Below, one piece after another: positions 6,812-22,979 of a stretch of DNA of 41,628 bases; position 1 is the stretch's first letter, and each line of letters opens with the position of its first letter. Below the pieces are notes generated by a model. That model was not told the origin of the DNA. It saw nothing but the letters and a program-made list of their open reading frames with translations, and ran no database searches. Made by a program: the position numbers and the translations under genes. This stretch comes from Patescibacteria group bacterium (GTDB lineage Bacteria; Patescibacteriota; Microgenomatia; UBA1400; PJMF01), in contig JAHIVL010000073.1 in assembly GCA_018816485.1 (NCBI GenBank), forward strand, positions 1 through 41,628, in the 5' to 3' direction.

Positions 6812-6822
6812 ATATTCTGATT

Positions 6823-8334
6823 ATGAAAAATAATAAGTTTATAGTAATATTTTCTAAACTAAACAAAGATCTAGATTCTTCGGCTATTATAGCAGTTAAC
6901 GTATACTTTTTAGTTTCTCTAGTTATTTCTTCTACAAAACTGTCTTTTCTATTTAGTTTTATTTTTTTTGTTTTTCTAGCTTATTGTTATTCATTTTATA
7001 AAGCTATGGTTTATAGTATGCTTCCATTGTTATATTTTGGCTTAGGTCAAATTCATTCGTTTGTCGCTGTGCCGGCTTCGGCAGTATATAGCCTACAATA
7101 CTGGGAAGGTAGGCAACTAGTTTTTTCTTTCTCTCCATTTTTTATTATTTTTTTATCTGGCTTAGTATTATTATTTATTTTGTGGAAGAAAATTAATATT
7201 AGGTTCTTATTACATGAAAAATTATTATTAATTTTGTTTGGCGCGTTTGGACTTTCATTTGTTGACTCTGTGATACCTCTTTTAAGTTTTGGTTTTACTT
7301 TTGGAGAACTAATGCTGATTGTGTGGGGAGTTTATTTAATTTTGGCAACAAAAAAAGTTTCCAAATTAAAATTCAAAAAAGTAATATTTACTTTAATAAT
7401 AATATTCACTGGAATTTTATTACAAAATTCGCTTGTTGTATTTGGACAAATCGTTAAAGGTGGTTCTTTAGGATTAGCAATAGAAAGAACAGAAGTTGCG
7501 CCCGTTTTTGGTCTAGGAGCCGACGAAAGAGCCGACGTTTTTAGGCCTTTTGGTTTTAATGTTCATCCAAATGGACTAGCTAATGAAGTTATTCTAGTTG
7601 GAATGAGTATTTTAATTTTAATTCAGTATTTATCAGAAAAATTTACTATAAGAAAAAAGGTAATAAACAAATTGTCGGCAGGTGTTATTTTGGTATCATT
7701 ATTGATAGTGATTTTTACTCTTAGCAGAGCAGCATTTGTAGCAATTTTTGCATCGTTATTATTTTTTGCATATAGGCACCCCAGGCTACTTAAAAAAATT
7801 AAAAATTTACAACAACAACTATTAATCAAATCTAACCCATGGTTTAAAGTTATTGTATTGATAATATTGGGAATTTTGGTTTTTAAGTTAACTAATAGGT
7901 TATTTGACAGTATTTATTCATTTACTGAATTGGGTGGAGTTACTACTAGAACCGAGCAGTATCGCGAGGCAATTGAAGTATTTAAAAGCTCTCCATTGTT
8001 TGGGGTAGGAGTTGGCATGTTCATGCCAGCTTCTTATCAATTGTTTCCAGATGGAATTATGAGATATTTTCCTGAACCAGTTCACAATGGCTATCTATTA
8101 TTTTTAGTCGAAAGAGGCTTGGCATCTACAATAACTTATTTAGTTTTTGCAATTTATTTTTATTTAGAAATTATCAGGCTAAAGCTTTCTAGAATCATGA
8201 ATACTATGATATACTCAGGCATTATTTCTAGTTTTGTAATGATGTTATTTCATCCGCAAAACAATTTTTTAAGTTTTCTAGTAGTCTTAATTTTATTTAT
8301 TGTTCATTATGAAAAAACAACTTCTAAAATATAA
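6823..8334 (+). CDS. O-antigen ligase/polymerase-like (Wzy_C domain) polytopic membrane protein
   Basis: Ten or more hydrophobic segments. 'FTLSRAAFVAIFASLLFFAY', 'PLFGVGVGMF' and 'PVHNGYLLFLVERGLAS' match the Wzy_C core. Confidence 0.75.
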   Translation: MKNNKFIVIFSKLNKDLDSSAIIAVNVYFLVSLVISSTKLSFLFSFIFFVFLAYCYSFYKAMVYSMLPLLYFGLGQIHSFVAVPASAVYSLQYWEGRQLVFSFSPFFIIFLSGLVLLFILWKKINIRFLLHEKLLLILFGAFGLSFVDSVIPLLSFGFTFGELMLIVWGVYLILATKKVSKLKFKKVIFTLIIIFTGILLQNSLVVFGQIVKGGSLGLAIERTEVAPVFGLGADERADVFRPFGFNVHPNGLANEVILVGMSILILIQYLSEKFTIRKKVINKLSAGVILVSLLIVIFTLSRAAFVAIFASLLFFAYRHPRLLKKIKNLQQQLLIKSNPWFKVIVLIILGILVFKLTNRLFDSIYSFTELGGVTTRTEQYREAIEVFKSSPLFGVGVGMFMPASYQLFPDGIMRYFPEPVHNGYLLFLVERGLASTITYLVFAIYFYLEIIRLKLSRIMNTMIYSGIISSFVMMLFHPQNNFLSFLVVLILFIVHYEKTTSKI

Positions 8335-9196
8335 AAAAATTTTTAGAAAAAAGTCTAGAGTTATAGATGTCTTTGGTGTGTTATTAATTCTGTTTATAAT
8401 TTCTTTATCGTACTTGCTTCTTAATAGAAAAGTTGAGTATTTAAATATAACCTTACGCTTGTTTAATTACGAGGGAGCAGAGTATGGAATTGGAGGCAAC
8501 AAGCCTCGTCCTTGGTATGTTGAACAAATTACTCCTGGTAAAAAACAAGTAAGTGGTTTTGGTCAGACTTTGATTGAAGTCATGGATGTATATAATTATG
8601 ATGGTCCATCGGCCTTGCAAGATACTTACGTAACACTAAAAGTTAGAGCAGCTCAAAATAGAACTAGTAAACAATATATCTATAACGGCAGTCCATTGCT
8701 AATTCATGATGTAAGGTCATTTAAAGTTCAGGATATATTAATTGTTGGAGAAATAGTTGATGTTGAAGACAGTAGTAATGCAACTATAAAGAAAAAAGAT
8801 AAATTTTTAGTTTCTTTAGACTTATATAGCCAAGAAGGTATTGTTATGAGCAATAGTGCTGTAGTTATAGATGGAATTGAGAATTACGTTTTTAAATCTT
8901 TAGAAAAAGGAATGAAAATTAATGACAGTCATGATGATGTAGTGGTAGAAATTATTGATATAGAGAAGTCTGCTGGAATTAGAAGTTGGGTGGGTTCGTA
9001 TGGATATACAGAAACCATTGATCCAAATAGAACTAAAGTAAAATTGAAATTGGAAATTTCAGGTGAGAAAATTAATAATTATTACTACTATCGTCGTGAA
9101 GCTCCTCTAATTGTTGGACAAGGTTTACATCTTATATTCAATAATACATCTGTAGTTGGAATTATTACAGAAGTGGAACCTTTATTAGAGGATTAA
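8300..9196 (+). CDS. N-terminally anchored protein with two DUF4330-like beta-rich modules
   Basis: 'RVIDVFGVLLILFIISLSYLLL' anchor followed by two similar modules that each end in '..VGEIVDVE' or '..VGIITEVE'. The resemblance to DUF4330 is from memory. The start could be 8300 or 8309. Overlaps the upstream Wzy_C gene. Confidence 0.35.
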   Translation: MFIMKKQLLKYKKIFRKKSRVIDVFGVLLILFIISLSYLLLNRKVEYLNITLRLFNYEGAEYGIGGNKPRPWYVEQITPGKKQVSGFGQTLIEVMDVYNYDGPSALQDTYVTLKVRAAQNRTSKQYIYNGSPLLIHDVRSFKVQDILIVGEIVDVEDSSNATIKKKDKFLVSLDLYSQEGIVMSNSAVVIDGIENYVFKSLEKGMKINDSHDDVVVEIIDIEKSAGIRSWVGSYGYTETIDPNRTKVKLKLEISGEKINNYYYYRREAPLIVGQGLHLIFNNTSVVGIITEVEPLLED

Positions 9197-10047
9197 TGAA
9201 ACAACTTCCAAAGATATCAATTGTTACGCCATCTTTTAATCAAGGAAAGTTTTTGGAGCAGACGATTCTTTCAGTACTCAATCAAAATTATCCAAATTTT
9301 GAGTATGTAGTTATTGACGGTGGATCTACTGATGGAAGTCAAAAAATAATTAAAAAATATCAAAAAAGATTGCACTATTGGGAAAGTAAATCAGACAGGG
9401 GGCAGTCACATGCCATTAATAAAGGTTTTGCCAAAACAAATGGTGAGATCATGTTTTGGATTAACAGCGATGATGTTTTGAGGCCTGGAGCGCTACATTT
9501 GGTGGCTAGTATTTTTTCAAAATTTAGTGAGATCAGTTGGTTAACTAGTTTGCCATCAACAATTAATGACCAAGATTTTCAACTCTATTTGTCTCAACCT
9601 CCATTATATATAAATAGCTTTATCAGAAGAGGTTGGTACACTCGTAAATTTATGGGTTTTATTATGCAAGAGGGCACATTTTGGAGGAGATCTTTATGGG
9701 ATAGAGCGGGTGGGAATCTAGATGAGGTGCCCTACTCAATGGATCTTAAACTCTGGCAGTCATTTGCAGAACACGAGCAACTATATTGTATACATGCTTG
9801 TTTAGCTTCATATAGATTAAATCGTAACCGCAAAAATAATGACAATCACCATAAATACTATAAGGAAATAAACGCCTGGGTTCCAGAAAGTATTAGTTTA
9901 ATAGGGAAAATCGTCTGGCGCCAAGTTGCTAAAATTGCTCATCATCTCAAAATAGGTCCAGCTGTTTATTATGATCAAAGAAAGTTAAAGTGGTATTTTA
10001 GAAAAAATGTATTTAACTCTCAGAGTTTTAAACTACTGAAGTTGTGA
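9196..10047 (+). CDS. Glycosyltransferase family 2
   Basis: 'ISIVTPSFNQGKFLEQTILSVLNQNYPNFEYVVIDGGSTDGS' and 'WINSDDVL'. TAATG overlap with the upstream gene. Confidence 0.85.
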   Translation: MKQLPKISIVTPSFNQGKFLEQTILSVLNQNYPNFEYVVIDGGSTDGSQKIIKKYQKRLHYWESKSDRGQSHAINKGFAKTNGEIMFWINSDDVLRPGALHLVASIFSKFSEISWLTSLPSTINDQDFQLYLSQPPLYINSFIRRGWYTRKFMGFIMQEGTFWRRSLWDRAGGNLDEVPYSMDLKLWQSFAEHEQLYCIHACLASYRLNRNRKNNDNHHKYYKEINAWVPESISLIGKIVWRQVAKIAHHLKIGPAVYYDQRKLKWYFRKNVFNSQSFKLLKL

Positions 10048-10066
10048 AGAAAAATATATATTACGA

Positions 10067-11239
10067 TTAATTTTTAATATAAAATTTCTCAACTTGCTTC
10101 GCCACACTCTTCCAAGAGAGTATCTCTGCCACTTTTCTTGAATTTTTTCCAAGAACTTCAATTTTTTTAGGATTATCTAACAGATTGCTAATTGCTTTAG
10201 CAAATTCCTTAGGATTTTCTGATGCCAAGATGCCCACTTTTTCTTTTTTGAGTAATTTTTCAACTTCTCCAGTTGGGTTGGCTGCAATTGGTCTCCCTGC
10301 AGCCAAATAATCACCTAGCTTATTTGGGAATTTACCTAAGTTGATTTCTTTGTTGGCAAAAGGCAGCAGCATTACGTCACTTGCAGCCAGGCAGTATGGA
10401 AGTAGTTTTCTGGAAACTATTCCAGGGTGGATGACTTTTTTAAGTGCTACTGGATAATTTTCAAATTCTTCATAAAATTTATCAATATTTTTTGGTCCCA
10501 ACACTAACAAAAGAGTGTCGTTTCTTTCCTTATTAAGATCAATAAATGTTTTAGCCAGTAACACCTCATCATAAGTGCCCACATAAAGATAAGTTATGAT
10601 TTTATAGTTCAATGGGAAAGAAAGTTTATTTCTGGCTTCATTTTTTGACATTGGTATAATGCCATCAATATTGCATCCGATGGGTAGAAAGAAGATATTT
10701 TTCTTTGATCCTCTAATCTTGATTGCTTTTTTGACAAGGTCATCACTAATTGGAGTTAGATATTGTGCATGTTTGACAAACCATTGTTCAAAATTATGAT
10801 CAAGAGTAATTGGAATCAAACTAAAACGACCATAGCGACGATCTGCTATTCCGCCTTTACCCCATAGATCTGCCCAATCAAGAAACCACTTTGTCTTTCT
10901 ACAAAATAGTGATTTTATAAACCCGGGAACAGAAGCTGCTGGACGGTGATTAAAAGTATGAATGATGTAGCATTTTGAAAAAAGAATCATTAAAGAGCGA
11001 TATATAATGTCAAATGGATCATAGCCACCTTTTCGAAAACGGTATGGGAAAATGCCAATTGATTCGATTACCTTGACTTTTTTTTCAAGCGATACTTTCC
11101 TAGTAAGGGAGATATTTTTGGCGCTTGTCCAGAGCGTTACTTCGTGACCAAGCTCAGTTAATCCTTGAGCTAGAGATAAAGATCGCAAATAACTGCCCCC
11201 AATCTCTTTAGCTTCGTAGGTAGAGAAGATAATTTTCAT
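10067..11239 (-). CDS. Glycosyltransferase family 4 (GT-B)
   Basis: 'MKIIFSTYEAKEIGGSYLRSLSLAQGLTELGHEVTLWT' is a typical GT4 N-terminus. I chose the internal Met (ATG 11237-11239) because it forms an ATGA overlap with the stop of the upstream GT26 gene. The track ORF extends to 11335. Confidence 0.7.
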   Translation of the reverse strand: MKIIFSTYEAKEIGGSYLRSLSLAQGLTELGHEVTLWTSAKNISLTRKVSLEKKVKVIESIGIFPYRFRKGGYDPFDIIYRSLMILFSKCYIIHTFNHRPAASVPGFIKSLFCRKTKWFLDWADLWGKGGIADRRYGRFSLIPITLDHNFEQWFVKHAQYLTPISDDLVKKAIKIRGSKKNIFFLPIGCNIDGIIPMSKNEARNKLSFPLNYKIITYLYVGTYDEVLLAKTFIDLNKERNDTLLLVLGPKNIDKFYEEFENYPVALKKVIHPGIVSRKLLPYCLAASDVMLLPFANKEINLGKFPNKLGDYLAAGRPIAANPTGEVEKLLKKEKVGILASENPKEFAKAISNLLDNPKKIEVLGKNSRKVAEILSWKSVAKQVEKFYIKN

Positions 11240-11979
11240 TTTTTTATTTGCCTGCTGGGCTGGTTGAACATAAATAATTTTTTTATTATAGTTGAAAAGA
11301 TGAAATTTGGAATAACAATTAAATATCGTTTCCACAATCTTTTAGGTTCTGTGATTAGTCTAAATAACCATTCTAAGCCACATTGTTGAACATATTTAGG
11401 AGCTTGACTTTTATTATTGGTGATAAAATCAAATGCAGCTCCTACACAAAAAATAGTAGTTTTTGTTAGTTTGATTTTTAGTTTGGTGGCTAGCTCGGCT
11501 TGTTTGGGCGATCCAATGCCAATCCATAAGACATCAGGTTGAATCTTAATAATCGTATTTAATATTTCTTGTTCTTTTTTATTAGAATCAGATTTTTTAA
11601 TAAGTAAATAGTGTTGAGAATGGTTTTTATTGAGAGTTTTTTTTCTTAAATTGCGAAGCGCTTGAGAATTAGCACCCAAAAACACGCTCGAAAATTTTTT
11701 ATTTTTTATTTTTTCTAAAATTAAAATCATTAAGTTTGGGCCATACACTCGGTCAATAATAAAATCATTTTTTGAGCGAAACCACCATGTTAGCCACATG
11801 CTGTCTGTAGTGTAGATATCAATATTGTTATAAAAAGAATTATTTTTAGCTTGTGCTAAATCATGGAGTGAGCAAGGAAGAATAACTGTCGTTTTTCTTT
11901 CCCCAATCTTATTATTGATAGTATTGGCTACTGTTTTGAAATCTCCAAGAAGGAACTTGTATTTGTTTACTTTGTTCAT
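11236..11979 (-). CDS. WecB/TagA/CpsF family glycosyltransferase (GT26)
   Basis: 'PDVLWIGIGSPKQAELA' and 'FCVGAAFDFITNNKSQAPKYVQQCGLEWLFRLITEPKRLWKRYL' are the family's hallmark blocks. Confidence 0.85.
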   Translation of the reverse strand: MNKVNKYKFLLGDFKTVANTINNKIGERKTTVILPCSLHDLAQAKNNSFYNNIDIYTTDSMWLTWWFRSKNDFIIDRVYGPNLMILILEKIKNKKFSSVFLGANSQALRNLRKKTLNKNHSQHYLLIKKSDSNKKEQEILNTIIKIQPDVLWIGIGSPKQAELATKLKIKLTKTTIFCVGAAFDFITNNKSQAPKYVQQCGLEWLFRLITEPKRLWKRYLIVIPNFIFSTIIKKLFMFNQPSRQIKK

Positions 11980-12005
11980 AATATTTCCCCATGCCCGCTT
12001 TAAGA

Positions 12006-12034
12006 TTGAATTGTCGTTTTTGATGTCCTACAAT
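12006..12034 (+). promoter_or_regulatory. Candidate sigma70-type promoter for the GME/GT-C/SGNH operon
   Basis: TTGAAT (12006-12011), a 17-nt spacer, then TACAAT (12029-12034), about 60 nt upstream of the ATG at 12096, in a divergent intergenic region. AT-rich background makes false positives likely. Confidence 0.35.
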
Positions 12035-12095
12035 GATGCTGAATGTATAAATATGCAGTTAGTATAACCTAATTTATTGATTTTTTTTCAAAGAT

Positions 12096-13085
12096 ATGAA
12101 TAAACAAAAAGAAAAGACCGTTATTTTAGTTGCTGGAGCAGGTGGCTTTATTGGCGGTCATTTGGTTAATTATTTATTTAGCAAAGGTTATAAAAAAATT
12201 AGAGCTGTAGATATTAAGCCACTTGAAGATTGGTATCAGCTCAATAAAAAGGCCGAGAACTTAAAACTAGATTTAAGTGATCTAAAAAATTGCCAAAATG
12301 TTACGCGTAAAGTAGATGAAGTTTACAATTTAGCAGCTGACATGGGAGGGATGGGATTTATTGAAGCTAATAAAGCTTTATGTATGTTAAATGTTTTAAT
12401 TAATACTCACTTATTAATGGCGGCCAGAGATAATTATGTGAAGCGGTTTTTTTATTCATCTTCTGCGTGTGTTTATGCACTTAACAAGCAACAACGATCA
12501 GATATAGATGAATTAAAGGAGTCCGATGCCTATCCTGCAATGCCGGAAGATGGTTATGGTTGGGAAAAACTTTTTTCAGAACGTATGTGTAGGCATTTTA
12601 TGGAAGATTTTGGTTTAGAAACCAGAGTTGCTCGTTTTCATAATGTTTATGGTCCTCATGGTGAATATAAAGGTGGTAGAGAGAAAGCTCCTGCGGCTAT
12701 TATTCGCAAAGTAATATCGGCTAAAAACGCGGAAAAAAATGGAATTGAAATTTGGGGAGATGGAAAACAATCTCGTACTTTTATGTATATTGATGATTGT
12801 GTAAAAGGCATCGACATGATTATGCATAGCGACATCAAAGATCCGATAAACCTAGGAAGAAGTGAGCTTGTGACGATAAACGAGTTAGTCTCTATCGTTG
12901 AATCAATTGCAAATATTAAATTGAAGCGCACTTATAGCTTAGATGCTCCTCAGGGTGTTCGTGGAAGAAGCAGTAACAACACCATGATAAGAAAATTATT
13001 GAATTGGGAACCTCAAATTTCTTTAAAAGAAGGTTTAAACAAAACTTATGAGTGGATAAAAAGAGAGTTAAGCAAAAATGGTTAA
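12096..13085 (+). CDS. gme: GDP-mannose 3,5-epimerase (SDR family, plant GME-type)
   Basis: 'VAGAGGFIGGH', 'NLAADMGGMGFI', 'RFFYSSSACVY', 'YGWEKL', 'YKGGREKAPAA', 'WGDGKQSRTFMYIDDCV' and 'PQGVRGRSSNN' are colinear with my recollection of Arabidopsis GME along the whole length. Confidence 0.85.
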   Translation: MNKQKEKTVILVAGAGGFIGGHLVNYLFSKGYKKIRAVDIKPLEDWYQLNKKAENLKLDLSDLKNCQNVTRKVDEVYNLAADMGGMGFIEANKALCMLNVLINTHLLMAARDNYVKRFFYSSSACVYALNKQQRSDIDELKESDAYPAMPEDGYGWEKLFSERMCRHFMEDFGLETRVARFHNVYGPHGEYKGGREKAPAAIIRKVISAKNAEKNGIEIWGDGKQSRTFMYIDDCVKGIDMIMHSDIKDPINLGRSELVTINELVSIVESIANIKLKRTYSLDAPQGVRGRSSNNTMIRKLLNWEPQISLKEGLNKTYEWIKRELSKNG

Positions 13086-14535
13086 AAGATACAAGTATTT
13101 TTTCTTCTTTTTTCTTTTTCTTGTTTTATTTTTTTTACCTCGTTATTTAGCTCATTCACAGTATGATGCTTTGGAAGACGAAATTTTAGCAATTGATAAT
13201 AACATGATCTATTCTGCGTCAGAACAATTATTGGCTCCAGATTTTACCCATCCTCCCTTGTGGTATTTACTTATGGAATATCCAACTAAGTTATTGGCAT
13301 TAGAGCATGGTATTGGATACTATCGTTCAATTCAAGTTCTAATTTTATTTTTTGGACTAGTATTTTCAACTGGGTATTTTTGGAGAAAAATTCCTCACAA
13401 ATTTATATTAATTTTTTTGTTGCTATTTTTAACGAATGTTGAACTAATTCATTTAACTTCTCAGCATCGCATGTACTCCTTAGTATTAAGTTTTGGAGTT
13501 TTTTATGCTCTGTATTGGTTTTATTTAATAAAATATAAAAAGGATAAAAAATGGCAAGATTTTTTTACTGTTGGAATAATTGCTTCTTTAGGTTTTTTCA
13601 CTAATTACAGTATGATTTGGTTAATACCAATTTTTCCCATAGCGTATTTAATCTCTAGTGAGAGTGAAATTCTAAAACTTCGGATAAAAAATTTATTTAT
13701 TTTTACAATTACTTTTTTTGTTTCCATTAGTTGGTTTATTCCAACCTTTATCAAAAACTCTTTAATAAGCATTAATGCCAACCAATGGACTTTTGATTTT
13801 AATATCTATAATGTTTTTCAGTTATTTGTAAATTATTTTGGAATAATTCCTGTGCAGAAAGATCTTGGTAAAATTAGTATTTATGCAGTAGTTTTTATTG
13901 TTATCTTAGTTCTGATTGTATTAGGTCAATTATTTTTAAACAAAGAAAACTCTATAAAAAGAATTTTTTTTACTTCAGCAATTTCATTTATATTTTTTCT
14001 TTTAACAGTATTTATTACAGGAAATAGTTTATTGTATCCAAGAACAGCGATTTGTTTAGTATTGGCTTTTTATGTATTAATTACATGTGCTTTTGGGAGT
14101 TTTAAGTATTCAAGAGTCTTAGTTTTTTTAATAGCAATGCTGCAATTAAGCCAGTTCTTACTTTACTTTAATCAGGATGATTCTTTTTCAAATGGATACT
14201 TTTTTATGGATTATCGTATTCACCCAATTCATTATTTTGTGGATTATAATTTTCCGCAAAAGAGTTGTTTAGTTGTTATTCCTGTTTGGAATTATAGAGC
14301 TACTAAATATTTTTTAGAAGATGTTGTACAAGTCAAATCGGCAAGTATATTTGAAGTTGAAGATTCAATTAAGTTTTCAAAAACAAAAGATTGTGCATCT
14401 TTTTATTTTTTAGAACAATTTTCTATTGGCGAGAGTCGTTTGAAGCAACAATATAAAAAGTTTCTACCTTTTGATATTGAAAGAGTTTTGTTAGATGAAC
14501 ATGAAAATCAAAAATTATATTTAATGAGTGACTAG
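13078..14535 (+). CDS. GT-C-like polytopic membrane glycosyltransferase (PMT_2/ArnT-like)
   Basis: Twelve or more hydrophobic segments, an acidic motif in the first predicted external loop ('YDALEDEILAID') and a soluble C-terminal domain. 8-nt overlap (ATGGTTAA) with the GME stop. Confidence 0.45.
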   Translation: MVKRYKYFFFFFLFLVLFFLPRYLAHSQYDALEDEILAIDNNMIYSASEQLLAPDFTHPPLWYLLMEYPTKLLALEHGIGYYRSIQVLILFFGLVFSTGYFWRKIPHKFILIFLLLFLTNVELIHLTSQHRMYSLVLSFGVFYALYWFYLIKYKKDKKWQDFFTVGIIASLGFFTNYSMIWLIPIFPIAYLISSESEILKLRIKNLFIFTITFFVSISWFIPTFIKNSLISINANQWTFDFNIYNVFQLFVNYFGIIPVQKDLGKISIYAVVFIVILVLIVLGQLFLNKENSIKRIFFTSAISFIFFLLTVFITGNSLLYPRTAICLVLAFYVLITCAFGSFKYSRVLVFLIAMLQLSQFLLYFNQDDSFSNGYFFMDYRIHPIHYFVDYNFPQKSCLVVIPVWNYRATKYFLEDVVQVKSASIFEVEDSIKFSKTKDCASFYFLEQFSIGESRLKQQYKKFLPFDIERVLLDEHENQKLYLMSD

Positions 14536-16054
14536 CGCAAAAGTATTAACAATGAAAACAATAAAATTAAAGGAAATTTTCGCCGTATTATTTTTATTGC
14601 TTCCTGTGTTTTTAATAAGTTTTTTCTTTATGAATTCTAAATTTATTCTATTAGATGATCATGAGATATACAGGCTTTATTTTAAGGAGATAAATATTTT
14701 TACCGCCATTCTAGATGATTGGAAAAATCTCTATAGATTTAGGCCATTTTATTGGTTAGTAAGGCAAGTTGAATCTATTTTTTTCGGAATAAACCCCTTT
14801 TTTTGGTACAGCACAAGCTTGGTCTTTTTTTCTACTACCATTATATCTTTATATTTATTTTTTAAAAATATTGGTTACAAATCTTTTTTAGCAGTTATTT
14901 TTACTTGGGCTAGTGTTCTGGGCTATCAATCTATTGCTAGTTGGATGGCACTAGGAATTCAAGAAGGTTTAGGGTTGTGTCTTTTTTCTTGTAGCATATA
15001 CCAGCTTTCTTTATTTGGTTTGGATAGAATAATGAAAAACTTTTGTTTATCTGTGATATTCTTTTTTTTATCATTTCTGGTCAAGGAATCATTTTTTTTC
15101 TTAATTCCTTTTGTGGTCATAATCATTTTATGGCAAGAAAAATACTTCACAAGATCATTTTTTATAAAGAGCTTAGCTTTTAGTTCGGGCTCAATCTTCA
15201 TGATTCCAATTATTATGATTCAATCATGGCGAAGTTATAAATGGAGAATGATTAGTAATAATTTTAATCAGTTTGACTTTTTAAAAACTGATAATATGTT
15301 AAATTTTTTAGCTTTAATAAAAGAAAATTATCATTTGGTGTTAACATTCACTTTTTTTATTATCAGTGGTGTGTTTCTAGTTGTTGCTAACAGAAGAAAT
15401 AGTAAAAAAATAATTTTAATTTTTACTTTTTTACTGTGTTCATTGGGAATTAGCGCGCAGTTTTTAATTTACTCATTTACTGAGTATGTCGCTCCTCATT
15501 ATATTCAACCTATATCAATGATTATTGTTTTAAGTTTGTCATTTATTTTAAAGTACTATTCTTATAAAGCAAAATTTGTATATGGCTTACTAATATCTTT
15601 AGTATTGCCAATTACCTTTTTTAATTCAATTAGGTATGCAAATGGTCATAACTTTCAATCTCGAGCTCTTTATGAGATAGAGCAACAAGTTATTCAATCT
15701 AATAAAACAGACTTAATTTTGGTGGGTCATAGATCAAGAGATCACGAAAAGTTATTTTCTTTTTATAAAAGAATTTCTTATCAGAGTCCCAATAAAACTA
15801 TTTATTTTTATCATTATGACAATCTGAACAAAAATAAAAATGACAATAGATTTGATGTTGTTGAGGATACGACAATGCTAAATGTTAATTCAAACCAATT
15901 AAATAATTACCCAATGATAGTGAATATTTCATCAAATGGTTTTAATGATGAATATAATTTTATGACAACAAAATTGTTAACCAAACCAATTCTTAAGAAT
16001 ATTAATTATGATAGCACTTGGTATGTAGAAGCTCCATCTTTAGTTTTGAAATAA
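14528..16054 (+). CDS. Second GT-C-like polytopic membrane protein
   Basis: Many TM segments, an acidic first-loop motif 'FILLDDHEIYRLYF' and a soluble C-terminal domain. Start is GTG at 14528 or, more likely, ATG at 14552. Confidence 0.4.
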   Translation: MTSAKVLTMKTIKLKEIFAVLFLLLPVFLISFFFMNSKFILLDDHEIYRLYFKEINIFTAILDDWKNLYRFRPFYWLVRQVESIFFGINPFFWYSTSLVFFSTTIISLYLFFKNIGYKSFLAVIFTWASVLGYQSIASWMALGIQEGLGLCLFSCSIYQLSLFGLDRIMKNFCLSVIFFFLSFLVKESFFFLIPFVVIIILWQEKYFTRSFFIKSLAFSSGSIFMIPIIMIQSWRSYKWRMISNNFNQFDFLKTDNMLNFLALIKENYHLVLTFTFFIISGVFLVVANRRNSKKIILIFTFLLCSLGISAQFLIYSFTEYVAPHYIQPISMIIVLSLSFILKYYSYKAKFVYGLLISLVLPITFFNSIRYANGHNFQSRALYEIEQQVIQSNKTDLILVGHRSRDHEKLFSFYKRISYQSPNKTIYFYHYDNLNKNKNDNRFDVVEDTTMLNVNSNQLNNYPMIVNISSNGFNDEYNFMTTKLLTKPILKNINYDSTWYVEAPSLVLK

Positions 16055-17352: not shown

Positions 17353-18312
17353 CTAATTACAAATCTTTTTTTCTTTTTGTAAATAATTAAAAATATTTTT
17401 GGCTATAACAGTATGACCTTCTTTATTTGGGTGTTTATCCGGTAATTGTTCATTTTGTTTTGGTTGTGGTACTAAGGAAATAAAAGTTGCTATTTTATAT
17501 CGGTTTTGCCATTTTTCAATTATTTTTTCGTTTTCTTTTAATAGGTTCTTATAATAGAAAACAATTGTATTATCAGTATTATCTAGATTAAAAAATATGT
17601 CGAAGTTGTATTCTGAAAACTGTACGAGCTCATTTACAGAGTATTCTTTTAACAATTGTTGATATGCTTTGTTATAACAAATTGCATATCCATTAAAGTT
17701 AGATATGTCTTCTATGCAATCATTAATTAGTGGTTGCATGAGTTCGTTATATCTAGAAAAACCCGTGCTACTATCAAACCATAAAATTAGATTCGGATCG
17801 TATTTTTGGCCAAGCTCTTTATATCTTTGGACAATATATTGAATATCATATCCAGCCATGCCAAGATTAATAACTTCAAAGTTTTTATGCTTACAATTTT
17901 GATTATTGTCATTATTGATCAACACTTCTAGCTGCTCGCTCCAGCTGTCTTCAACATTTACGTGATGGCCATATGTGAATGAATCTCCTAAAGTAATTAT
18001 TCTATAGGTGTCCGTTGGTTTATTGATAGAGTAATCATTTATTTCTCTTAGACCATCATTGTTAATATGATATGTAACTTCATAGGAAAGCCAATCTGGT
18101 TTTTCTATCCATTCTTTTGGCTCTAGTTTCCAGTAGTATTTTAGTTCTTCACTTTGTCCAATAATTGTATTTGATTTATCTATGCCGGTTACTATGTTTG
18201 TTCCAAGAATATTATTTTGAGTAATTTTATTTTGAGAAACTTTATAAATAAAAAGAGTTCCGAGTAAAATTTCAGTTACTACAATAGTAATCAAAAATAT
18301 TTTTTTCTTCAC
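17353..18312 (-). CDS. Membrane-anchored SGNH/GDSL hydrolase-family protein
   Basis: N-terminal TM. Block I 'IITLGDSFTYG', block II 'NLGMAGYD', block V 'DKHPNKEGHTVIAKNIF'. 4-nt overlap with the carbamoyltransferase stop. Confidence 0.65.
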   Translation of the reverse strand: MKKKIFLITIVVTEILLGTLFIYKVSQNKITQNNILGTNIVTGIDKSNTIIGQSEELKYYWKLEPKEWIEKPDWLSYEVTYHINNDGLREINDYSINKPTDTYRIITLGDSFTYGHHVNVEDSWSEQLEVLINNDNNQNCKHKNFEVINLGMAGYDIQYIVQRYKELGQKYDPNLILWFDSSTGFSRYNELMQPLINDCIEDISNFNGYAICYNKAYQQLLKEYSVNELVQFSEYNFDIFFNLDNTDNTIVFYYKNLLKENEKIIEKWQNRYKIATFISLVPQPKQNEQLPDKHPNKEGHTVIAKNIFNYLQKEKKICN

Positions 18313-20009
18313 TTTTTAACAACATAATTATCTATCACCAAGTAATCTATATCAGTACTCAAAAAACACCTGATTGCATCATTTGGAGTGCAAACGATTG
18401 GCTCACCCCTGACATTAAAAGAAGTGTTGATAATTATTGGAATCCCAGTTTTATCTTTATAGGATTTTACCAAGTCATAGTATTTTGGGTTATCTTTTCT
18501 GATCAGAGTTTCGAGTCTACCACTATTATCAACGTGGGCCACTGCAGGGACTTGTTTAAGGCCGATCTTTTTAAAAGGATATACCATTAGCATCCATCTT
18601 GCAGAAGGAGAGATATAGTCATCAGTTTCAAAATAATTCTTTGTATCTTCTTCAAGAATCACTGGCGCAAAGGGTCTAAACATTTCTCTCTTTTTAACTT
18701 TTTCATTAATGATATCTCTCATTTTTGTTGTAGTTGCCGAAGCTAAAATGCTTCTATTTCCAAGAGCTCGTGGTCCCCATTCCATTCTTCCTTGAAACCA
18801 ACCGATTACTTTTTTAGATTTAATTAATTTAGATACTTTATCAACCAATTTTTTATCACTTTCAATTCGTACGTATTTTAATTTATATTTTTTTAATTCT
18901 TTTTCAATTTGATACCATTTATATTCTGGTCCCAAATATGGATGAAAATCCTTCTTGTTCACTAATTTGCTTGTATGCTGAGTGTAGGAATACATAGCGG
19001 CACCCATAGCGGCACCAGCATCACTAGGATCAGGGGGAATAAATAACCTTTCAAACTGTGTATTAGATAGAATTTTTCCATTTAAAACAGAATTAAGAGC
19101 AACTCCACCCGCAAAGCATAGATTTTTTGTTTTGTAGGTTTTATATGCTGTATTTAAGAGGTTAACAACTACTTCTTCCAGCTTTTTCTGCAATGCTGCA
19201 GCAATATTTTCATGATATTTTTTTACTGGTCCCTCCTTTTTTCTAGGAGGATGGCCAAATAATTCACTCATTTTTTCTGAAGGCATATGATCAGCCCAAT
19301 CAAAATCAAAATATTTCATGTTTAGTTTAAAACTACCATCAGGAAATACCTCAATAATTTTGTCAAAATGTTTTTTAAATGGTTTGGGATCACCATAAGC
19401 CGCTAGGCCCATAACCTTGTATTCGCTGTCATTGGCACTAAATCCCAGATAAGTGGTTAAAGTGCTGTAAAGCAAACCAAGTGAGTGAGGAAAGTAAATT
19501 TCTTTGTCAATTTGAATTTTTTCATTAGATCCGTATCCAATGGTAGTAGTGGACCACTCACCAACTCCGTCAACTGTAACAATCGCTGATTTTTTAAATG
19601 GTGCAAGATAAAAAGCACTAGCCGCATGCGAAAGGTGGTGATCAATAAAATTGACTTCGCCAAAATAATTCACCTTTTCTTCAAGTGTTTTTTTAATTTG
19701 TAATCGAGATCCAAACCATGGCCCAATAGTGTTGACAAACTGTTTGTAACTTTTTGGGAAATTTTCTAGATGTTGAGAAATAATTCTCTCAAACTTAATC
19801 AAGGGTTTTTCATAAAAAGAAACTAAGTCAACCTCGTTTGCAGAAATATTTAAACTATCAAGGCAAAACTCAATAGCTTTTAGAGGAAAACTATTATCAT
19901 GTTTAATGCGGGTAAATCTTTCTTCAGCAGCTCCTGCAACAATTTTCCCATCTTTAATGATGCAAGCAGCACTATCGTGGTAATAGCAAGATATTCCTAG
20001 TACAATCAT
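18309..20009 (-). CDS. Carbamoyltransferase (NodU/CmcH family)
   Basis: 'GISCYYHDSAACIIKDGKIVAGAAEERFTRIKHDNSFP', 'HHLSHAASAFY', 'GGVALNSVLNGKI', 'MEWGPRALGNRSILA', 'RPFAPVILEE' and 'IIINTSFNVRGEPIV'. Confidence 0.9.
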   Translation of the reverse strand: MIVLGISCYYHDSAACIIKDGKIVAGAAEERFTRIKHDNSFPLKAIEFCLDSLNISANEVDLVSFYEKPLIKFERIISQHLENFPKSYKQFVNTIGPWFGSRLQIKKTLEEKVNYFGEVNFIDHHLSHAASAFYLAPFKKSAIVTVDGVGEWSTTTIGYGSNEKIQIDKEIYFPHSLGLLYSTLTTYLGFSANDSEYKVMGLAAYGDPKPFKKHFDKIIEVFPDGSFKLNMKYFDFDWADHMPSEKMSELFGHPPRKKEGPVKKYHENIAAALQKKLEEVVVNLLNTAYKTYKTKNLCFAGGVALNSVLNGKILSNTQFERLFIPPDPSDAGAAMGAAMYSYTQHTSKLVNKKDFHPYLGPEYKWYQIEKELKKYKLKYVRIESDKKLVDKVSKLIKSKKVIGWFQGRMEWGPRALGNRSILASATTTKMRDIINEKVKKREMFRPFAPVILEEDTKNYFETDDYISPSARWMLMVYPFKKIGLKQVPAVAHVDNSGRLETLIRKDNPKYYDLVKSYKDKTGIPIIINTSFNVRGEPIVCTPNDAIRCFLSTDIDYLVIDNYVVKK

Positions 20010-21793: not shown

Positions 21794-22326
21794 TGGTGAT
21801 GCTGATTGGTCTTGGATTTATTAATTTTGTTACGAAAATTCTAATTAATGGCGGTAATGAGGAAATAACATTTAGAATTTTTCCTTACTTCTACTCACAA
21901 TCTGAATTCTTTTTGACTGAAGCAGATATTTCAGAAGAACAAACTGATTTATTATATAAAATTTATGAGAATCACGATAAATTTATTTTGAATAATATTG
22001 AAAAAGAACCAAATATAGATAAAAAAATTGAACTATATAAAAAACTCATGGTGGTAAGGTTGTACGATGTTACAAACACAAATTATTATCAGCTCTTGCT
22101 AGACCAGGGCATGTATGTCAGCTTGGGAGAGGCTTCATACAAAGGTCTTTCTATGCTGATAGAAAATGAAAATAATGGAATGGGGCAGTCATACATAGTA
22201 AAAGAAAACATAATTAATTATCTTTTATTGTCTGCTCATTGGCACGAAGAAAATGGTGAGTATGATTTGTATAAAAAATACTATGATTTTATTGAGTCAA
22301 TTTGGAATAAAGATTGGAGTAATTAA
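21793..22326 (+). CDS. Hypothetical protein with an N-terminal TM, coupled to the Wzy_C gene
   Basis: TAATG overlap with the upstream gene. The helical, Tyr/Glu-rich sequence has no family I recognise. Confidence 0.4.
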   Translation: MVMLIGLGFINFVTKILINGGNEEITFRIFPYFYSQSEFFLTEADISEEQTDLLYKIYENHDKFILNNIEKEPNIDKKIELYKKLMVVRLYDVTNTNYYQLLLDQGMYVSLGEASYKGLSMLIENENNGMGQSYIVKENIINYLLLSAHWHEENGEYDLYKKYYDFIESIWNKDWSN

Positions 22327-22979
22327 TAGTCACCTTTTAATAGCTGCTTGATGATTATTTTATAAAAAGTATTGAAAATTAGAGAAAGGTCATTTTTTAA
22401 CGACCAATTGAGTTTTGATTCATTTCTAACAATCAAGTCATTGATTTCGTTTTTTTCTAGTTTTCTCCATTCATTTAATGATTGGTAGCGATTTGGAGAT
22501 AGTGCCCATTTTGATATTATTCCTGGCCTAACTTTATATCTAAAATCCCAAGAAGAAGGAAGGCTATTAGCTTCGTTAACTGGTAGGGGGCGAGGTCCAA
22601 CTAAACTCATTTCTCCTTTTAGAATATTAATTATTTGTGGAATTTCATCTATACCAAAATTTGAAAGAGTTTTGCCAATAATAGTAAATCTTGGGTCGTT
22701 TTTAATTTTAAACATTGGGTAAGGAGAAATATTTAGTTTTTTGAGTTTGTCTTGTTGTGAGCTAGCTCCACGCTTCATAGTTCTAAGCTTGTAAATAGTA
22801 AATATTTTCTTGTCTTTTCCTATTCTTTTTTGTTTAAAAATAACTGGACATCCAATTAACAATACAAAAAAGGGATAAATAAATACAAAAATTGGTATGA
22901 AAAATATTAGACCAATGATTGATAAAATTATGTCAAAAATTCTTTTATTATCAATCATAGTTTGATCCCGGGTGGACAA
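22323..22979 (-). CDS. Small monotopic phosphoglycosyl transferase (bacterial sugar transferase, WbaP C-terminal/PglC-like), the pathway-initiating enzyme
   Basis: 'RIFDIILSIIGLIFFIPIF', 'VIFKQKRIGKDKKIFTIYKLRTM' and 'DEIPQIINILKGEMSLVGPRPLP'. Confidence 0.9.
   Translation of the reverse strand: MSTRDQTMIDNKRIFDIILSIIGLIFFIPIFVFIYPFFVLLIGCPVIFKQKRIGKDKKIFTIYKLRTMKRGASSQQDKLKKLNISPYPMFKIKNDPRFTIIGKTLSNFGIDEIPQIINILKGEMSLVGPRPLPVNEANSLPSSWDFRYKVRPGIISKWALSPNRYQSLNEWRKLEKNEINDLIVRNESKLNWSLKNDLSLIFNTFYKIIIKQLLKGDY

What the first reader, a model, noticed from the sequence alone, without database searches (positions are those of the whole stretch)
12096..13085. Plant-type GDP-mannose 3,5-epimerase in a bacterial glycan locus, implying L-galactose or L-gulose in the glycan
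Seen: a 329-aa SDR whose blocks (NLAADMGGMGFI, RFFYSSSACVY, YGWEKL, YKGGREKAPAA, GDGKQSRTFMYIDDCV, GVRGRSSNN) are colinear with plant GME as I remember it. These include the Cys of SSAC[IV]Y and the Lys of KGGREK, which I recall as the acid/base pair. Known: GME converts GDP-D-mannose to GDP-L-galactose and GDP-L-gulose. Prokaryotic homologues exist but are uncommon and rarely linked to a defined glycan. Seen: its stop overlaps the start of a GT-C-like gene by 8 nt, and no manB/manC or GDP-mannose dehydratase gene is in the window. Inference: an L-hexose from GDP-mannose is a building block of this glycan.
Basis: partly seen in the sequence, partly recalled or inferred. Interest (0 to 1): 0.6.

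Follow-up and report, generated by a model that had tools for sequence, protein, structure and literature searches.

The report
GDP-mannose 3,5-epimerase in CPR glycan locus
The gene is a genuine but ordinary bacterial GDP-mannose 3,5-epimerase, the enzyme that makes activated L-galactose and L-gulose, in a surface-sugar gene cluster of an ultra-small (Woesebacteria-like) bacterium; the family is widespread in bacteria, and its most frequent gene neighbour is a WecG/TagA-type sugar transferase that may install the L-sugar.

Summary
Observation confirmed. The ORF at 12096-13085 (+) encodes a 329-aa extended SDR. It carries every quoted motif and overlaps the next gene by 8 nt.

Identity as a GDP-mannose 3,5-epimerase (GME) is strongly supported:
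- Plant GME structures are the best solved match (E 1e-93, 47% identity, full length). The next family scores E 6e-29.
- All eight functional residues are kept: S123, C125, Y154, K158, N183, K197, R227, R291.
- It lies in a 100/99-supported clade with plant GMEs, apart from Fcl, Gmd, RfbB and GalE.

The genome encodes PGI/PMI, PGM/PMM and ManC on other contigs, so GDP-mannose supply is plausible.

"Uncommon in prokaryotes" is wrong overall. At least 599 species genomes hold close homologues, and about 1080 clusters at 50% identity reach E<=1e-30. It does hold within Patescibacteria (8 of 400 sampled). "Plant-type" misleads, because the protein sits in a bacterial clade.

The downstream gene has a GT-C fold, so it cannot take a GDP-sugar directly.

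New lead: a WecG/TagA (GT26) gene lies beside GME here, in all five GME-positive close relatives, and in 27 of 80 loci from at least six other phyla. It was found near none of 7 other Patescibacteria checked.

This scan has found GME before on other DNA and judged it ordinary. Verdict: new member of a known kind, low to moderate interest.

The parts
12096..13085 (+). GDP-mannose 3,5-epimerase (GME/GM35E), 329 aa. GxxGxxG at G14/G17/G20; S123-Y154-K158 triad; C125 acid, K197 base, R291 Cys-acidifying Arg, R227 diphosphate-binding Arg, N183.
11980..12095 (.). 116-nt divergent intergenic region between the GT26 gene (-) and GME (+). It holds one promoter-like match (TTGAAT-17-TACAAT, 12006-12034, +). 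Promoter-like sites in the scanned region are no more frequent than in shuffles.
11236..11979 (-). WecG/TagA/CpsF-family (GT26) glycosyltransferase, 247 aa. Best candidate for the transferase that uses the GME product (inferred from conserved gene pairing).
   Evidence: Pfam PF03808 E 3e-40; TIGR00696 104.6 bits against cut-off 69; TagA structure 7mpk E 4.7e-14; pairing
10067..11239 (-). GT4 glycosyltransferase (GT4b). The likely true start is the ATG at 11239-11237, which overlaps the GT26 stop TGA (ATGA) and gives about 390 aa, as in homologues of 387-392 aa. The listed ORF extends to a GTG at 11335.
13078..14535 (+). GT-C-fold polytopic membrane glycosyltransferase (GTC1), 485 aa. Invariant D34/E35 in the first loop. 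Small CPR-restricted family with no Pfam match.
14528..16054 (+). Second polytopic membrane protein (GTC2), 508 aa. Its GTG start overlaps the GTC1 stop by 8 nt. GT-C-like by position and topology only; it was not modelled here.
   Evidence: tandem GTC1-like pair in G002
9196..10047 (+). GT2 glycosyltransferase (GT2b), a conserved member of the cassette
22323..22979 (-). Small polyprenyl-phosphate phosphoglycosyltransferase (Bac_transf), the likely initiating enzyme of the lipid-linked glycan
   Evidence: A PGT-GT26 fusion lies next to GME in relative G005, and a PGT+GME fusion is P0217.
22951..24294 (-). GT2-YdjC fusion, a probable lipid-phosphate amino-sugar donor route that could feed the GT-C proteins
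6823..8334 (+). Wzy_C-domain membrane protein, a conserved cassette member
18309..20009 (-). Carbamoyltransferase that co-occurs with GME in related cassettes (L025, G010, G123)

Best explanation
The ORF encodes an NAD+-dependent extended-SDR GDP-mannose 3,5-epimerase (EC 5.1.3.18).

Mechanism, taken from the characterised Arabidopsis and Methylacidiphilum enzymes: tightly bound NAD+ with Y154/K158/S123 oxidises C4 of GDP-alpha-D-mannose. C125 and K197 then act as the acid/base pair that inverts C5 and C3 through ene-diolate intermediates, with R291 lowering the pKa of the Cys. NADH reduces C4 again. The result is an equilibrium mixture of GDP-Man, GDP-beta-L-galactose and GDP-beta-L-gulose.

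GDP-mannose would come from genes on other contigs: a bifunctional PGI/PMI, a PgmG-like PGM/PMM and a ManC (inferred). A glycosyltransferase of the same locus pulls the unfavourable equilibrium by transferring the L-hexose onto an undecaprenyl-PP-linked glycan started by the small PGT. The most likely transferase is the divergently transcribed GT26 WecG/TagA-like enzyme, acting as second-sugar transferase (inferred from gene pairing; about 45% likely within this explanation).

The two GT-C proteins coupled downstream act later, outside the membrane. They probably use a lipid-phosphate amino-sugar donor on the same glycan.

Shown here: family membership, catalytic residues, genomic context and supply genes. 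Inferred: substrate and products in this organism, which L-sugar is incorporated, and which transferase uses it.
For: - Best solved relatives are plant GMEs (8sg0 E 1.3e-93, 2c59 E 7.8e-92), aligned over residues 6-327. The next family, UXS, scores 6.5e-29.
- Identity to AtGME is 47% (150 of 316 aligned residues), and all eight functional residues named in PMC8787198 are conserved.
- In an alignment of 46 SDRs, the Cys/Lys/Arg set is present in all 37 GME-clade rows. E. coli Fcl has Cys/His/Lys, and GalE, RfbB and Gmd lack it.
- The ML tree gives a GME clade at 100/99* that includes both plant GMEs. Fcl is sister, and GalE and RfbB are distant.
- Supply genes in the genome: ManC at C4:9794-10897 (TIGR01479 E 3.5e-93), PgmG-like mutase at C99:24868-26310 (E 1e-109), PGI/PMI at C99:21544-22659 (E 3.5e-74).
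- The cassette Wzy, unknown, GT2, GT4(-), GT26(-), GME, GT-C is conserved in a Woesebacteria genome and in Pacebacteria contigs.
- A GT26 gene lies directly beside GME in 27 of 80 loci from Acidobacteriota, Verrucomicrobiota, Planctomycetota, Actinomycetota, Gemmatimonadota and Vulcanimicrobiota (plus one record without a phylum label), and within 6 kb in 31 of 80.
- Among 40 relatives, the six closest GT26 matches (41-75% identity) include all five GME-positive genomes; there the GT26 gene is adjacent to GME or one gene away.
- A PGT-GT26 fusion lies next to GME in G005.
- All 39 GME-linked GT26 fall in one 100/99* clade that excludes E. coli WecG and TagA.
- Independent signs that bacterial GME products feed L-fucosyltransferase-like enzymes: a WcaI-like GT4 is the second commonest neighbour (14 of 80 loci), and a GME+NodZ-like fusion exists.
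Against: - No biochemical data exist for this protein or any CPR homologue.
- No NCBIfam equivalog reaches its cut-off. No family listed in that search is a GME model, so this counts as no evidence rather than a failure.
- ManC, PMM and PMI each score below their curated equivalog cut-offs. The single PGM/PMM-family gene sits beside a GlmU-like gene and may mainly serve as GlmM.
- The GT26 pairing is not universal. None of 7 other GME-positive Patescibacteria from an even phylum sample has a GT26 within about 9 kb of GME.
- Seven GT26 of the same clade come from genomes or loci without GME; one is G024.
- Known GT26 enzymes use UDP-sugars (own knowledge; no paper linking GT26 with GDP-L-Gal was found).
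- In the genomes searched, the GTC1 family occurs only in GME loci, so a closer GME to GT-C link through an unidentified lipid-P-L-hexose synthase cannot be excluded.
Confidence: 0.85

Rival explanations
1. It is a GME-family enzyme, but its L-hexose reaches the glycan through the two GT-C proteins coupled to it. A GT2 of the polyprenyl-phosphate glycosyltransferase type would first move L-Gal or L-Gul from GDP onto undecaprenyl phosphate. GTC1 and GTC2 would then attach it outside the membrane.
For: - 8-nt overlaps chain GME to GTC1 and GTC1 to GTC2.
- GTC1 has a GT-C fold closest to ArnT.
- Among 41 genomes, the GTC1 family is found only in G000, G002 and G010, always inside the GME locus.
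- Many of its 26 homologues share contig lengths with GME homologues.
- In Pacebacteria, a PpgS/AglJ-like polyprenyl-P-sugar synthase plus DUF2304 follows GME and a GT-C-like gene.
Against: - No GtrB/ArnC/DPM1-type GT2 with a clear match is present in the window apart from the GT2-YdjC fusion, whose deacetylase domain points to an N-acetyl-hexosamine and not L-Gal.
- PpgS-type enzymes use UDP-HexNAc (own knowledge).
- GME occurs without GTC1 in G001, G004 and G005, whereas GT26 accompanies it in all five GME-positive relatives.
- GTC1 is not found in any of the 80 loci from other phyla.
Confidence: 0.15
2. It is a GME-clade enzyme whose physiological substrate or product differs from the textbook one. 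Examples: it supplies only GDP-L-gulose (C5 epimer), or it acts on another GDP-hexose such as GDP-mannuronate, GDP-D-rhamnose (which would give GDP-L-fucose) or GDP-glucose.
For: - Characterised GMEs release both L-Gal and L-Gul, and BlmG is thought to supply L-gulose (PMC6678494).
- GDP-altrose has been reported as a further product (reference listed).
- NDP-sugar 6-dehydrogenase+GME fusions exist (P0171, P0281), and a dehydrogenase is a frequent neighbour (10 of 80 loci). Uronic-acid chemistry is therefore linked to some GMEs.
- The genome has Gmd plus a Gmd-like SDR, and no Fcl-type (Cys/His) SDR turned up among the own-genome SDR hits examined.
Against: - The window and its cassette contain no dehydrogenase next to GME.
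- The complete active-site set is identical to that of enzymes shown to act on GDP-mannose.
- No evidence exists that any GME accepts 6-deoxy or uronate substrates (own knowledge).
Confidence: 0.1
3. It is not a 3,5-epimerase at all but a generic UDP-hexose 4-epimerase (GalE-like), a GDP-fucose synthase (GMER/Fcl) or a dehydratase of the same superfamily.
For: - Pfam assigns only the superfamily domains Epimerase and GDP_Man_Dehyd.
- The best NCBIfam match is the Fcl model, at 123 bits.
- Public annotations mostly read 'NAD-dependent epimerase/dehydratase family protein'.
Against: - The Fcl model scores 123 bits against a cut-off of 500, and GalE 85 bits against 262.
- The base is Lys and not the His of GMER, and the acidifier is Arg and not Lys. 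GalE has Thr/Gly/Y at these sites (criteria).
- The tree separates it from Fcl, GalE, RfbB and Gmd with 100/99* support.
- There is a 200-bit gap between GME and any other solved family.
Confidence: 0.02

Closest known systems
Arabidopsis thaliana GDP-mannose 3,5-epimerase (AtGM35E/GME; PDB 2c59, 2c54, 2c5a, 2c5e) and the plant GME of PDB 8sg0
   Same: Full-length collinear alignment at 47% identity. Same S/Y/K triad, Cys-Lys acid/base pair, Cys-acidifying Arg, diphosphate Arg and orange-wall Asn. Same clade in the tree.
   Different: - It lacks the plant N-terminal (about 25 aa) and C-terminal (about 30 aa) extensions.
- It has GxxGxxG where AtGME has GxxGxxA.
- It belongs to a bacterial sub-clade.
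- It serves a surface-glycan locus, not ascorbate or cell-wall synthesis.
Methylacidiphilum fumariolicum SolV MfGM35E (UniProt I0K0X9), the first characterised bacterial GME (PMC6678494)
   Same: A bacterial, self-sufficient GME of about the same size, encoded next to a glycosyltransferase in a presumed envelope-glycan context. The same catalytic residues are reported.
   Different: Its sequence could not be fetched here, so no direct comparison was made. It comes from a thermophilic verrucomicrobium, whereas this one comes from an uncultured organism with a 1-Mb CPR genome.
BlmG (bleomycin) and the GME of the A201A pathway
   Same: Bacterial GME homologues that supply L-gulose or L-galactose to a glycosyltransferase (PMC6678494).
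   Different: Those act in secondary-metabolite glycosylation in actinomycetes. This one lies in a Wzy/PGT-type surface-glycan locus.
GDP-L-fucose synthase (GMER/Fcl/WcaG), E. coli K-12 b2052
   Same: Sister family in the tree. It uses the same Cys acid and performs a 3,5-epimerisation on a GDP-sugar.
   Different: Fcl uses His as base and Lys as acidifier, needs the 4-keto-6-deoxy substrate from Gmd, and ends with an NADPH reduction. The window protein has Lys and Arg, and matches the Fcl model at 123 bits against a cut-off of 500.
TagA/TarA and WecG (GT26): second-sugar transferases acting on Und-PP-GlcNAc
   Same: The neighbouring gene 11236-11979 matches the family above its cut-off and matches TagA structure 7mpk. 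A PGT-GT26 fusion in a relative fits a second-step role.
   Different: The GME-linked GT26 form a clade that excludes TagA and WecG. Their donor would be a GDP-L-hexose and not UDP-ManNAc(A). This is inferred, not shown.
ArnT, and the PpgS/Rv3632/Rv3779-type or FlmF2/NaxD/FlmK-type lipid-carrier glycosylation systems
   Same: GTC1 has the GT-C fold with ArnT as best match. A GT2-YdjC fusion (window) or a PpgS-like GT2 plus DUF2304 (Pacebacteria) accompanies the GT-C genes.
   Different: There is no detectable sequence similarity to these families (no Pfam family reaches its score cut-off; only a weak PMT_2 match, E 0.008, 16.8 bits). Acceptor and donor are unknown.

Membership tests
GDP-mannose 3,5-epimerase (GM35E/GME, EC 5.1.3.18) | Extended-SDR fold with an N-terminal glycine motif for NAD+ (GxxGxxG/A) | tested here: met
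   PF01370 E 7.9e-46 over residues 10-254; G14, G17, G20
GDP-mannose 3,5-epimerase (GM35E/GME, EC 5.1.3.18) | Catalytic triad [ST]xnYx3K for C4 oxidation and reduction (At S143, Y174, K178) | tested here: met
   S123, Y154, K158 align with the At residues
GDP-mannose 3,5-epimerase (GM35E/GME, EC 5.1.3.18) | Catalytic acid Cys (At C145) | tested here: met
   C125 in SSACVY; criterion from PMC8787198
GDP-mannose 3,5-epimerase (GM35E/GME, EC 5.1.3.18) | Catalytic base is Lys (At K217), not the His of GMER | tested here: met
   K197 in GGREKAPAA. E. coli Fcl and the L023 SDR have His at this column.
GDP-mannose 3,5-epimerase (GM35E/GME, EC 5.1.3.18) | Cys-acidifying residue is Arg (At R306), not the Lys of GMER. 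Also the diphosphate-binding Arg (At R243) and the conserved Asn (At N203). | tested here: met
   R291, R227, N183
GDP-mannose 3,5-epimerase (GM35E/GME, EC 5.1.3.18) | Groups with characterised GMEs to the exclusion of GMER, GalE, RmlB and Gmd | tested here: met
   The clade of 37 rows, including two plant GMEs with solved structures, has support 100/99*. There is a 200-bit margin over the next solved family.
GDP-mannose 3,5-epimerase (GM35E/GME, EC 5.1.3.18) | All seven 'heptagonal box' wall motifs of Da Costa et al. 2021 | tested here: inconclusive
   Only the residues named in the text of PMC8787198 could be checked. The figure holding the full motifs is not available.
GDP-mannose 3,5-epimerase (GM35E/GME, EC 5.1.3.18) | [quoted passage not shown] | not testable with these tools
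   Needs recombinant enzyme and HPLC or NMR
UDP-glucose 4-epimerase (GalE) | Reaches the GalE equivalog score, and has no additional acid/base pair | tested here: not met
   TIGR01179 scores 85.4 bits against a cut-off of 262.3. GalE has Thr/Gly/Tyr where this protein has Cys/Lys/Arg. It is distant in the tree.
GDP-L-fucose synthase (GMER/Fcl) | Cys acid with His base and Lys acidifier, and the equivalog score | tested here: not met
   NF047922 scores 123.2 bits against a cut-off of 500. Lys and Arg replace His and Lys.
GT26 WecG/TagA/CpsF glycosyltransferase (neighbour 11236-11979) | Family profile above its cut-off, and similarity to the TagA structure | tested here: met
   TIGR00696 scores 104.6 bits against a cut-off of 69; PF03808 E 3.2e-40; 7mpk E 4.7e-14
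GT26 WecG/TagA/CpsF glycosyltransferase (neighbour 11236-11979) | Uses the GME product (a GDP-L-hexose) as donor | not testable with these tools
   Only gene pairing supports it. It fails as a universal rule.
GT-C glycosyltransferase (downstream gene 13078-14535) | GT-C membrane fold with an acidic motif in the first extracytoplasmic loop | tested here: met
   AF2 pLDDT 88.8, pTM 0.89. Top 13 Foldseek PDB matches are all GT-C, with ArnT at E 3.7e-4 and TM 0.5. D34 and E35 are invariant in 25 homologues.

The most novel reading that the evidence does not exclude
The GME-linked branch of the GT26 (WecG/TagA) family would be a previously unrecognised class of bacterial GDP-L-galactose (or GDP-L-gulose) transferases. 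These enzymes would add the L-hexose as the second sugar on an undecaprenyl-PP-linked primer. Woesebacteria and Pacebacteria, and many Acidobacteriota, Verrucomicrobiota and Planctomycetota, would then display L-Gal or L-Gul near the reducing end of a surface glycan. The CPR-specific GT-C family, found only in GME loci, would decorate that L-hexose-containing polymer outside the membrane.
Probability: 0.35. Interest if true: 0.55.

Novelty: new member of a known kind. Interest (0 to 1): 0.3.

Why it matters
The annotation itself is routine. GME is a known enzyme, one bacterial example has been characterised, and homologues occur in hundreds of bacterial species.

Its value is descriptive. It predicts that an uncultured CPR bacterium with a 1-Mb genome spends genes on a rare L-hexose in its envelope glycan.

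The recurrent pairing of GME with a distinct GT26 clade gives a concrete, testable candidate for a bacterial L-galactosyl or L-gulosyl transferase. In other loci the partners are WcaI-like GT4, NodZ-like or GT11 enzymes. Transferases for these L-sugars are wanted for glycorandomisation and L-galactoside synthesis (PMC8787198).

Tried and rejected
- **Literature.** No paper combines GDP-L-galactose, glycosyltransferase and WecG. L-galactose with Patescibacteria gave only irrelevant papers, and so did GT26/TagA/donor/GDP. Two searches failed on term syntax or returned nothing.
- **MfGM35E sequence.** It could not be obtained.
- **Supply genes next to GME in other phyla.** This is rare: ManC in 2 of 80 loci, ManB in 0 of 80, Gmd in 5 of 80 matches at that threshold (two above 40% identity). 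Absence of manB/manC from this window is therefore typical and not informative.
- **GTC1, GTC2, GT4b and GT2b in the 80 loci from other phyla.** Hits were 0, 0, 0 and 1. These partners are CPR-specific.
- **GT26 pairing as a universal rule.** Rejected: none of 7 further GME-positive Patescibacteria has a GT26 within about 9 kb of GME.
- **NCBIfam.** It has no usable GME model; all hits fall below their cut-offs.
- **Promoter scan.** Matches are no more frequent than in shuffles, so no promoter claim is made.
- **Glf (4506-5624) as an L-Gal mutase.** Considered, since the A201A pathway has L-Galf. Rejected as unsupported: it is an ordinary UGM-family protein (PF03275 E 2e-71).
Full report
**1. 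Observation**

The ORF at 12096-13085 (+) starts at ATG, ends at TAA and encodes 329 aa. The next ORF begins at 13078, so the junction ATGGTTAA gives the stated 8-nt overlap.

The window holds no ManC, PMM or Gmd gene. The ManC model, NTP_transferase, PGM_PMM_I and Gmd profiles hit only contigs C4, C22, C72, C99 and C25 of the same genome. The only window matches to the Gmd model are GME itself and a second SDR at 24254-25183, both far below the cut-off.

**2. Organism**

The window is contig C20 of a 1.04-Mb genome in 103 contigs, 97.6% complete and about 30% G+C. The closest GME homologue is 83% identical. It is identical to the protein of relative G002 (same genus) and is named 'Candidatus Woesebacteria bacterium', assembly GCA_017999345.1. 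The organism is therefore a CPR/Patescibacteria (Microgenomates) bacterium.

**3. What the protein is**

- Search against all PDB sequences: plant GDP-mannose 3,5-epimerases lead (8sg0 E 1.3e-93, 317 bits; Arabidopsis 2c59 E 7.8e-92), aligned over residues 6-327. The next family, UDP-glucuronate decarboxylase, scores E 6.5e-29 (105 bits). Fcl scores 1.8e-22.
- Pfam gives only the superfamily domain. No NCBIfam equivalog comes near its cut-off: Fcl 123 of 500 bits, GalE 85 of 262.
- The review PMC8787198 names the features that distinguish GME from GalE and from GDP-fucose synthase (GMER). These are the S/Y/K triad (At S143, Y174, K178), Cys acid C145, Lys base K217 (His in GMER), Cys-acidifying R306 (Lys in GMER), diphosphate-binding R243 and N203.
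- Mapping through the HMMER alignment gives S123, Y154, K158, C125, K197, R291, R227 and N183, all conserved, at 47% identity over 316 columns.
- In a 46-sequence alignment, every GME-clade row has Cys/Lys/Arg. E. coli Fcl has Cys/His/Lys, GalE has Thr/Gly/Tyr, and Gmd and RfbB have Glu at the Cys position.
- A maximum-likelihood tree (LG+C20, 46 rows) puts the window protein in a 37-row clade with both plant GMEs (100/99*, stem length 4.5). Fcl is sister, and GalE and RfbB are remote.

**4. Mechanism (from the characterised enzymes; inferred here)**

NAD+-dependent oxidation at C4 is followed by Cys/Lys-mediated inversion at C5 and C3, then re-reduction. [quoted passage not shown] Because the equilibrium is unfavourable, a glycosyltransferase has to pull the reaction.

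**5. Substrate supply**

Elsewhere in the genome lie:
- a ManC without the PMI domain (C4:9794-10897, TIGR01479 E 3.5e-93), in a second glycan locus;
- a PgmG-like phosphoglucomutase/phosphomannomutase (C99:24868-26310, E 1e-109);
- a bifunctional PGI/PMI (C99:21544-22659, E 3.5e-74);
- a Gmd above its cut-off, with a Gmd-like SDR beside it on C25.

All but Gmd score below their equivalog cut-offs. The single mutase sits next to a GlmU-like gene. The route to GDP-mannose is therefore plausible but not certain.

**6. How common is it?**

Dozens of hits are 65-76% identical, from Pacebacteria, Bacteroidetes, Aminicenantes, Planctomycetia and others, and some are named GDP-D-mannose 3',5'-epimerase by JGI.
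The best 80 are 62-68% identical and come from Acidobacteriota, Verrucomicrobiota, Planctomycetota, Actinomycetota, Chlamydiota, Bacteroidota, Cyanobacteriota, Chloroflexota, Gemmatimonadota and Pseudomonadota.
- An exhaustive HMMER search of 1.84 billion representatives found 1080 clusters at 50% identity with E<=1e-30.
- Within Patescibacteria the gene is sparse and patchy: 8 of 400 evenly sampled genomes, all with the full residue set, and 5 of 40 close relatives.
- Two GME lineages only about 50% identical occur within the same genus, which points to cassette exchange.

So 'uncommon in prokaryotes' is wrong in general but fair for this phylum. 'Plant-type' is misleading, because the protein belongs to a bacterial sub-clade. 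Earlier follow-ups in this scan reached the same verdict on other DNA.

**7. Context in the window**

Roughly 400-26761 is one glycan locus. It contains GT2s, an MGS-like GT, a methyltransferase, a PLP decarboxylase-like protein, Glf, two GT4s, two Wzy_C proteins, GT26, GME, two polytopic proteins, SGNH/GDSL proteins, a carbamoyltransferase, a small PGT, a GT2-YdjC fusion, another SDR and a purple-acid-phosphatase-like surface protein.

The block Wzy, unknown, GT2, GT4(-), GT26(-), GME, polytopic protein recurs in the Woesebacteria relative and on Pacebacteria contigs. It recurs, rearranged, in G123 and G010.

**8. The downstream gene**

GTC1 has no Pfam family above its score cut-off (only a weak PMT_2 match, E 0.008) and only 26 homologues. 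An AF2 model built from them is confident (pLDDT 88.8, pTM 0.89). Its 13 best PDB fold matches are all GT-C enzymes: ArnT, ALG12, STT3, ALG9, Pmt4, AftA, ALG3 and Pmt1/2. D34/E35 in the first loop are invariant. 'GT-C-like' is therefore correct.

GT-C enzymes take polyprenyl-phosphate-linked donors, so GTC1 cannot use GDP-L-Gal directly. Other routes to lipid-linked donors are encoded nearby:
- The locus encodes a GT2-YdjC fusion, which an earlier follow-up read as a lipid-linked amino-sugar route (not re-tested here).
- The Pacebacteria cassette has a PpgS/AglJ-like GT2 plus DUF2304 between its GT-C-like genes.

On the other side, among 41 genomes the GTC1 family occurs only inside GME loci (G000, G002 with two copies, G010). 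A closer link cannot be ruled out, and I keep it as a rival at 0.15.

**9. Who uses the product?**

I clustered the genes within 2.5 kb of GME in the 80 loci.
- The commonest neighbour is a WecG/TagA (GT26) gene: 29 loci by clustering, 31 by HMM, and 27 directly adjacent on the same strand with a median gap of 108 nt.
- Second is a WcaI-like GT4 in 14 loci. Its blastp score against the E. coli colanic-acid fucosyltransferase is 1.7e-30.
- Third is an NDP-sugar dehydrogenase in 10 loci.

In this window the GT26 gene (11236-11979, -) is divergent from GME across 116 nt. Its TGA overlaps the ATG of GT4b (ATGA).

Among 40 relatives, the six closest matches to this GT26 (41-75% identity) are in G002, G010, G024, G005, G004 and G001; five of these are the five GME-positive genomes. 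In four of those the GT26 gene abuts GME, and in G002 one gene lies between them. In G005 the GT26 is fused to the PGT domain, which fits a second-sugar transferase. The sixth, G024, has the GT26 without GME.

In a GT26 tree, all 39 GME-linked sequences fall in one clade (100/99*). That clade excludes E. coli WecG, TagA (7mpk) and nine unlinked CPR GT26, but it also holds seven unlinked members.

Against a universal rule: none of 7 further GME-positive Patescibacteria has a GT26 within about 9 kb. The control sets were also small and were chosen by similarity to the query. I rate GT26 as the consumer at roughly 45% within the main explanation.

Fusion proteins among the representatives give independent hints. 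GME+NodZ-like (a fucosyltransferase family) and PGT+GME fusions tie GME to glycan assembly with L-fucose-type transferases. Dehydrogenase+GME fusions suggest uronic-acid variants elsewhere. One GME carries an intein.

**10. Comparison and novelty**

The protein meets every GME membership feature that could be tested in silico. Only the in-vitro activity is untestable here, and the full heptagonal-box motifs were not available.

It is a new member of a known kind. A bacterial GME was characterised in 2019, and BlmG and the A201A enzyme are earlier bacterial cases. No paper was found that links GME with GT26 or reports L-galactose in Patescibacteria. The pairing is thus a modest new lead and not an established fact.

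**11. Verdict**

Confidence that this is a functional GME supplying an L-hexose to the locus glycan is 0.85. Interest is 0.3: a sound, ordinary annotation with one testable comparative-genomic lead.

Noticed in passing
window 11236-11239 (- strand): The GT26 stop TGA overlaps an in-frame ATG of the GT4 gene (ATGA). The GT4 probably starts at 11239 (about 390 aa, like its 387-392-aa homologues), not at the listed GTG at 11335. GT26 and GT4b would then be translationally coupled.
   Followed up: partly
L118 (G005:C1) 6325-7698 (+), next to GME at 7687-8637 (-): In a same-genus relative, the initiating phosphoglycosyltransferase (Bac_transf) and the GT26 domain are fused into one 457-aa protein beside a GME of the second lineage.
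   Followed up: partly
L019-L022 versus window 12096-13085: Two GME lineages only about 50% identical occur within one genus: G001, G004 and G005 against G000 and G002. Each travels with its own GT26 sub-clade, which suggests cassette replacement and not vertical descent.
   Followed up: partly
L117 (G024:C11) 4136-8325: A relative without GME keeps the CPR GME-type GT26, flanked by two GT4 genes and a radical SAM/SPASM protein. Its donor sugar is unknown.
   Followed up: no
genome contig C99:21544-26310 (- strand): One co-directional string encodes a bifunctional PGI/PMI, a Cof-type HAD phosphatase, an archaeal-GlmU-like sugar-1-P nucleotidylyltransferase/acetyltransferase, and a PgmG-like PGM/PMM that is the only PGM/PMM-family gene in the genome. 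It looks like a compact hexose-activation operon.
   Followed up: partly
genome contig C25:1337-8065 (+ strand): A second envelope-glycosylation set: Ugd-like dehydrogenase, a Gmd-like SDR (possibly Rmd), Gmd, a PgfS/GtrB-like GT2 with a membrane tail, a 492-aa polytopic protein and another GT2. It is another consumer of GDP-mannose.
   Followed up: no
L025 9004-13234 (Pacebacteria contig): Right after GME come a 547-aa polytopic protein (DUF8201 in the precomputed annotation), a PpgS/AglJ-like polyprenyl-P-sugar synthase (226 aa), DUF2304 and a PMT_2-like polytopic protein. The layout recalls the mycobacterial PpgS/Rv3632/GT-C galactosamine system.
   Followed up: partly
proteins P0171, P0281, P0217, P0238, P0163 (representatives): GME occurs fused to an NDP-sugar 6-dehydrogenase, to a Bac_transf phosphoglycosyltransferase and to a NodZ-like fucosyltransferase domain. 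One copy is interrupted by a Hint/LAGLIDADG intein.
   Followed up: partly
L024 4652-7249 and L025 5376-7976: A roughly 865-aa PQQ-like beta-propeller protein is inserted in the cassette of the Woesebacteria relative and the Pacebacteria. It is absent from this window's cassette.
   Followed up: no
window 24254-25183 (-): A second SDR (309 aa) in the locus is closest to GalE and RmlB models but below their cut-offs. It has Ser/Ala/Ser at the GME acid, base and Arg columns, so it is probably a 4-epimerase or similar enzyme for another sugar of the glycan.
   Followed up: no
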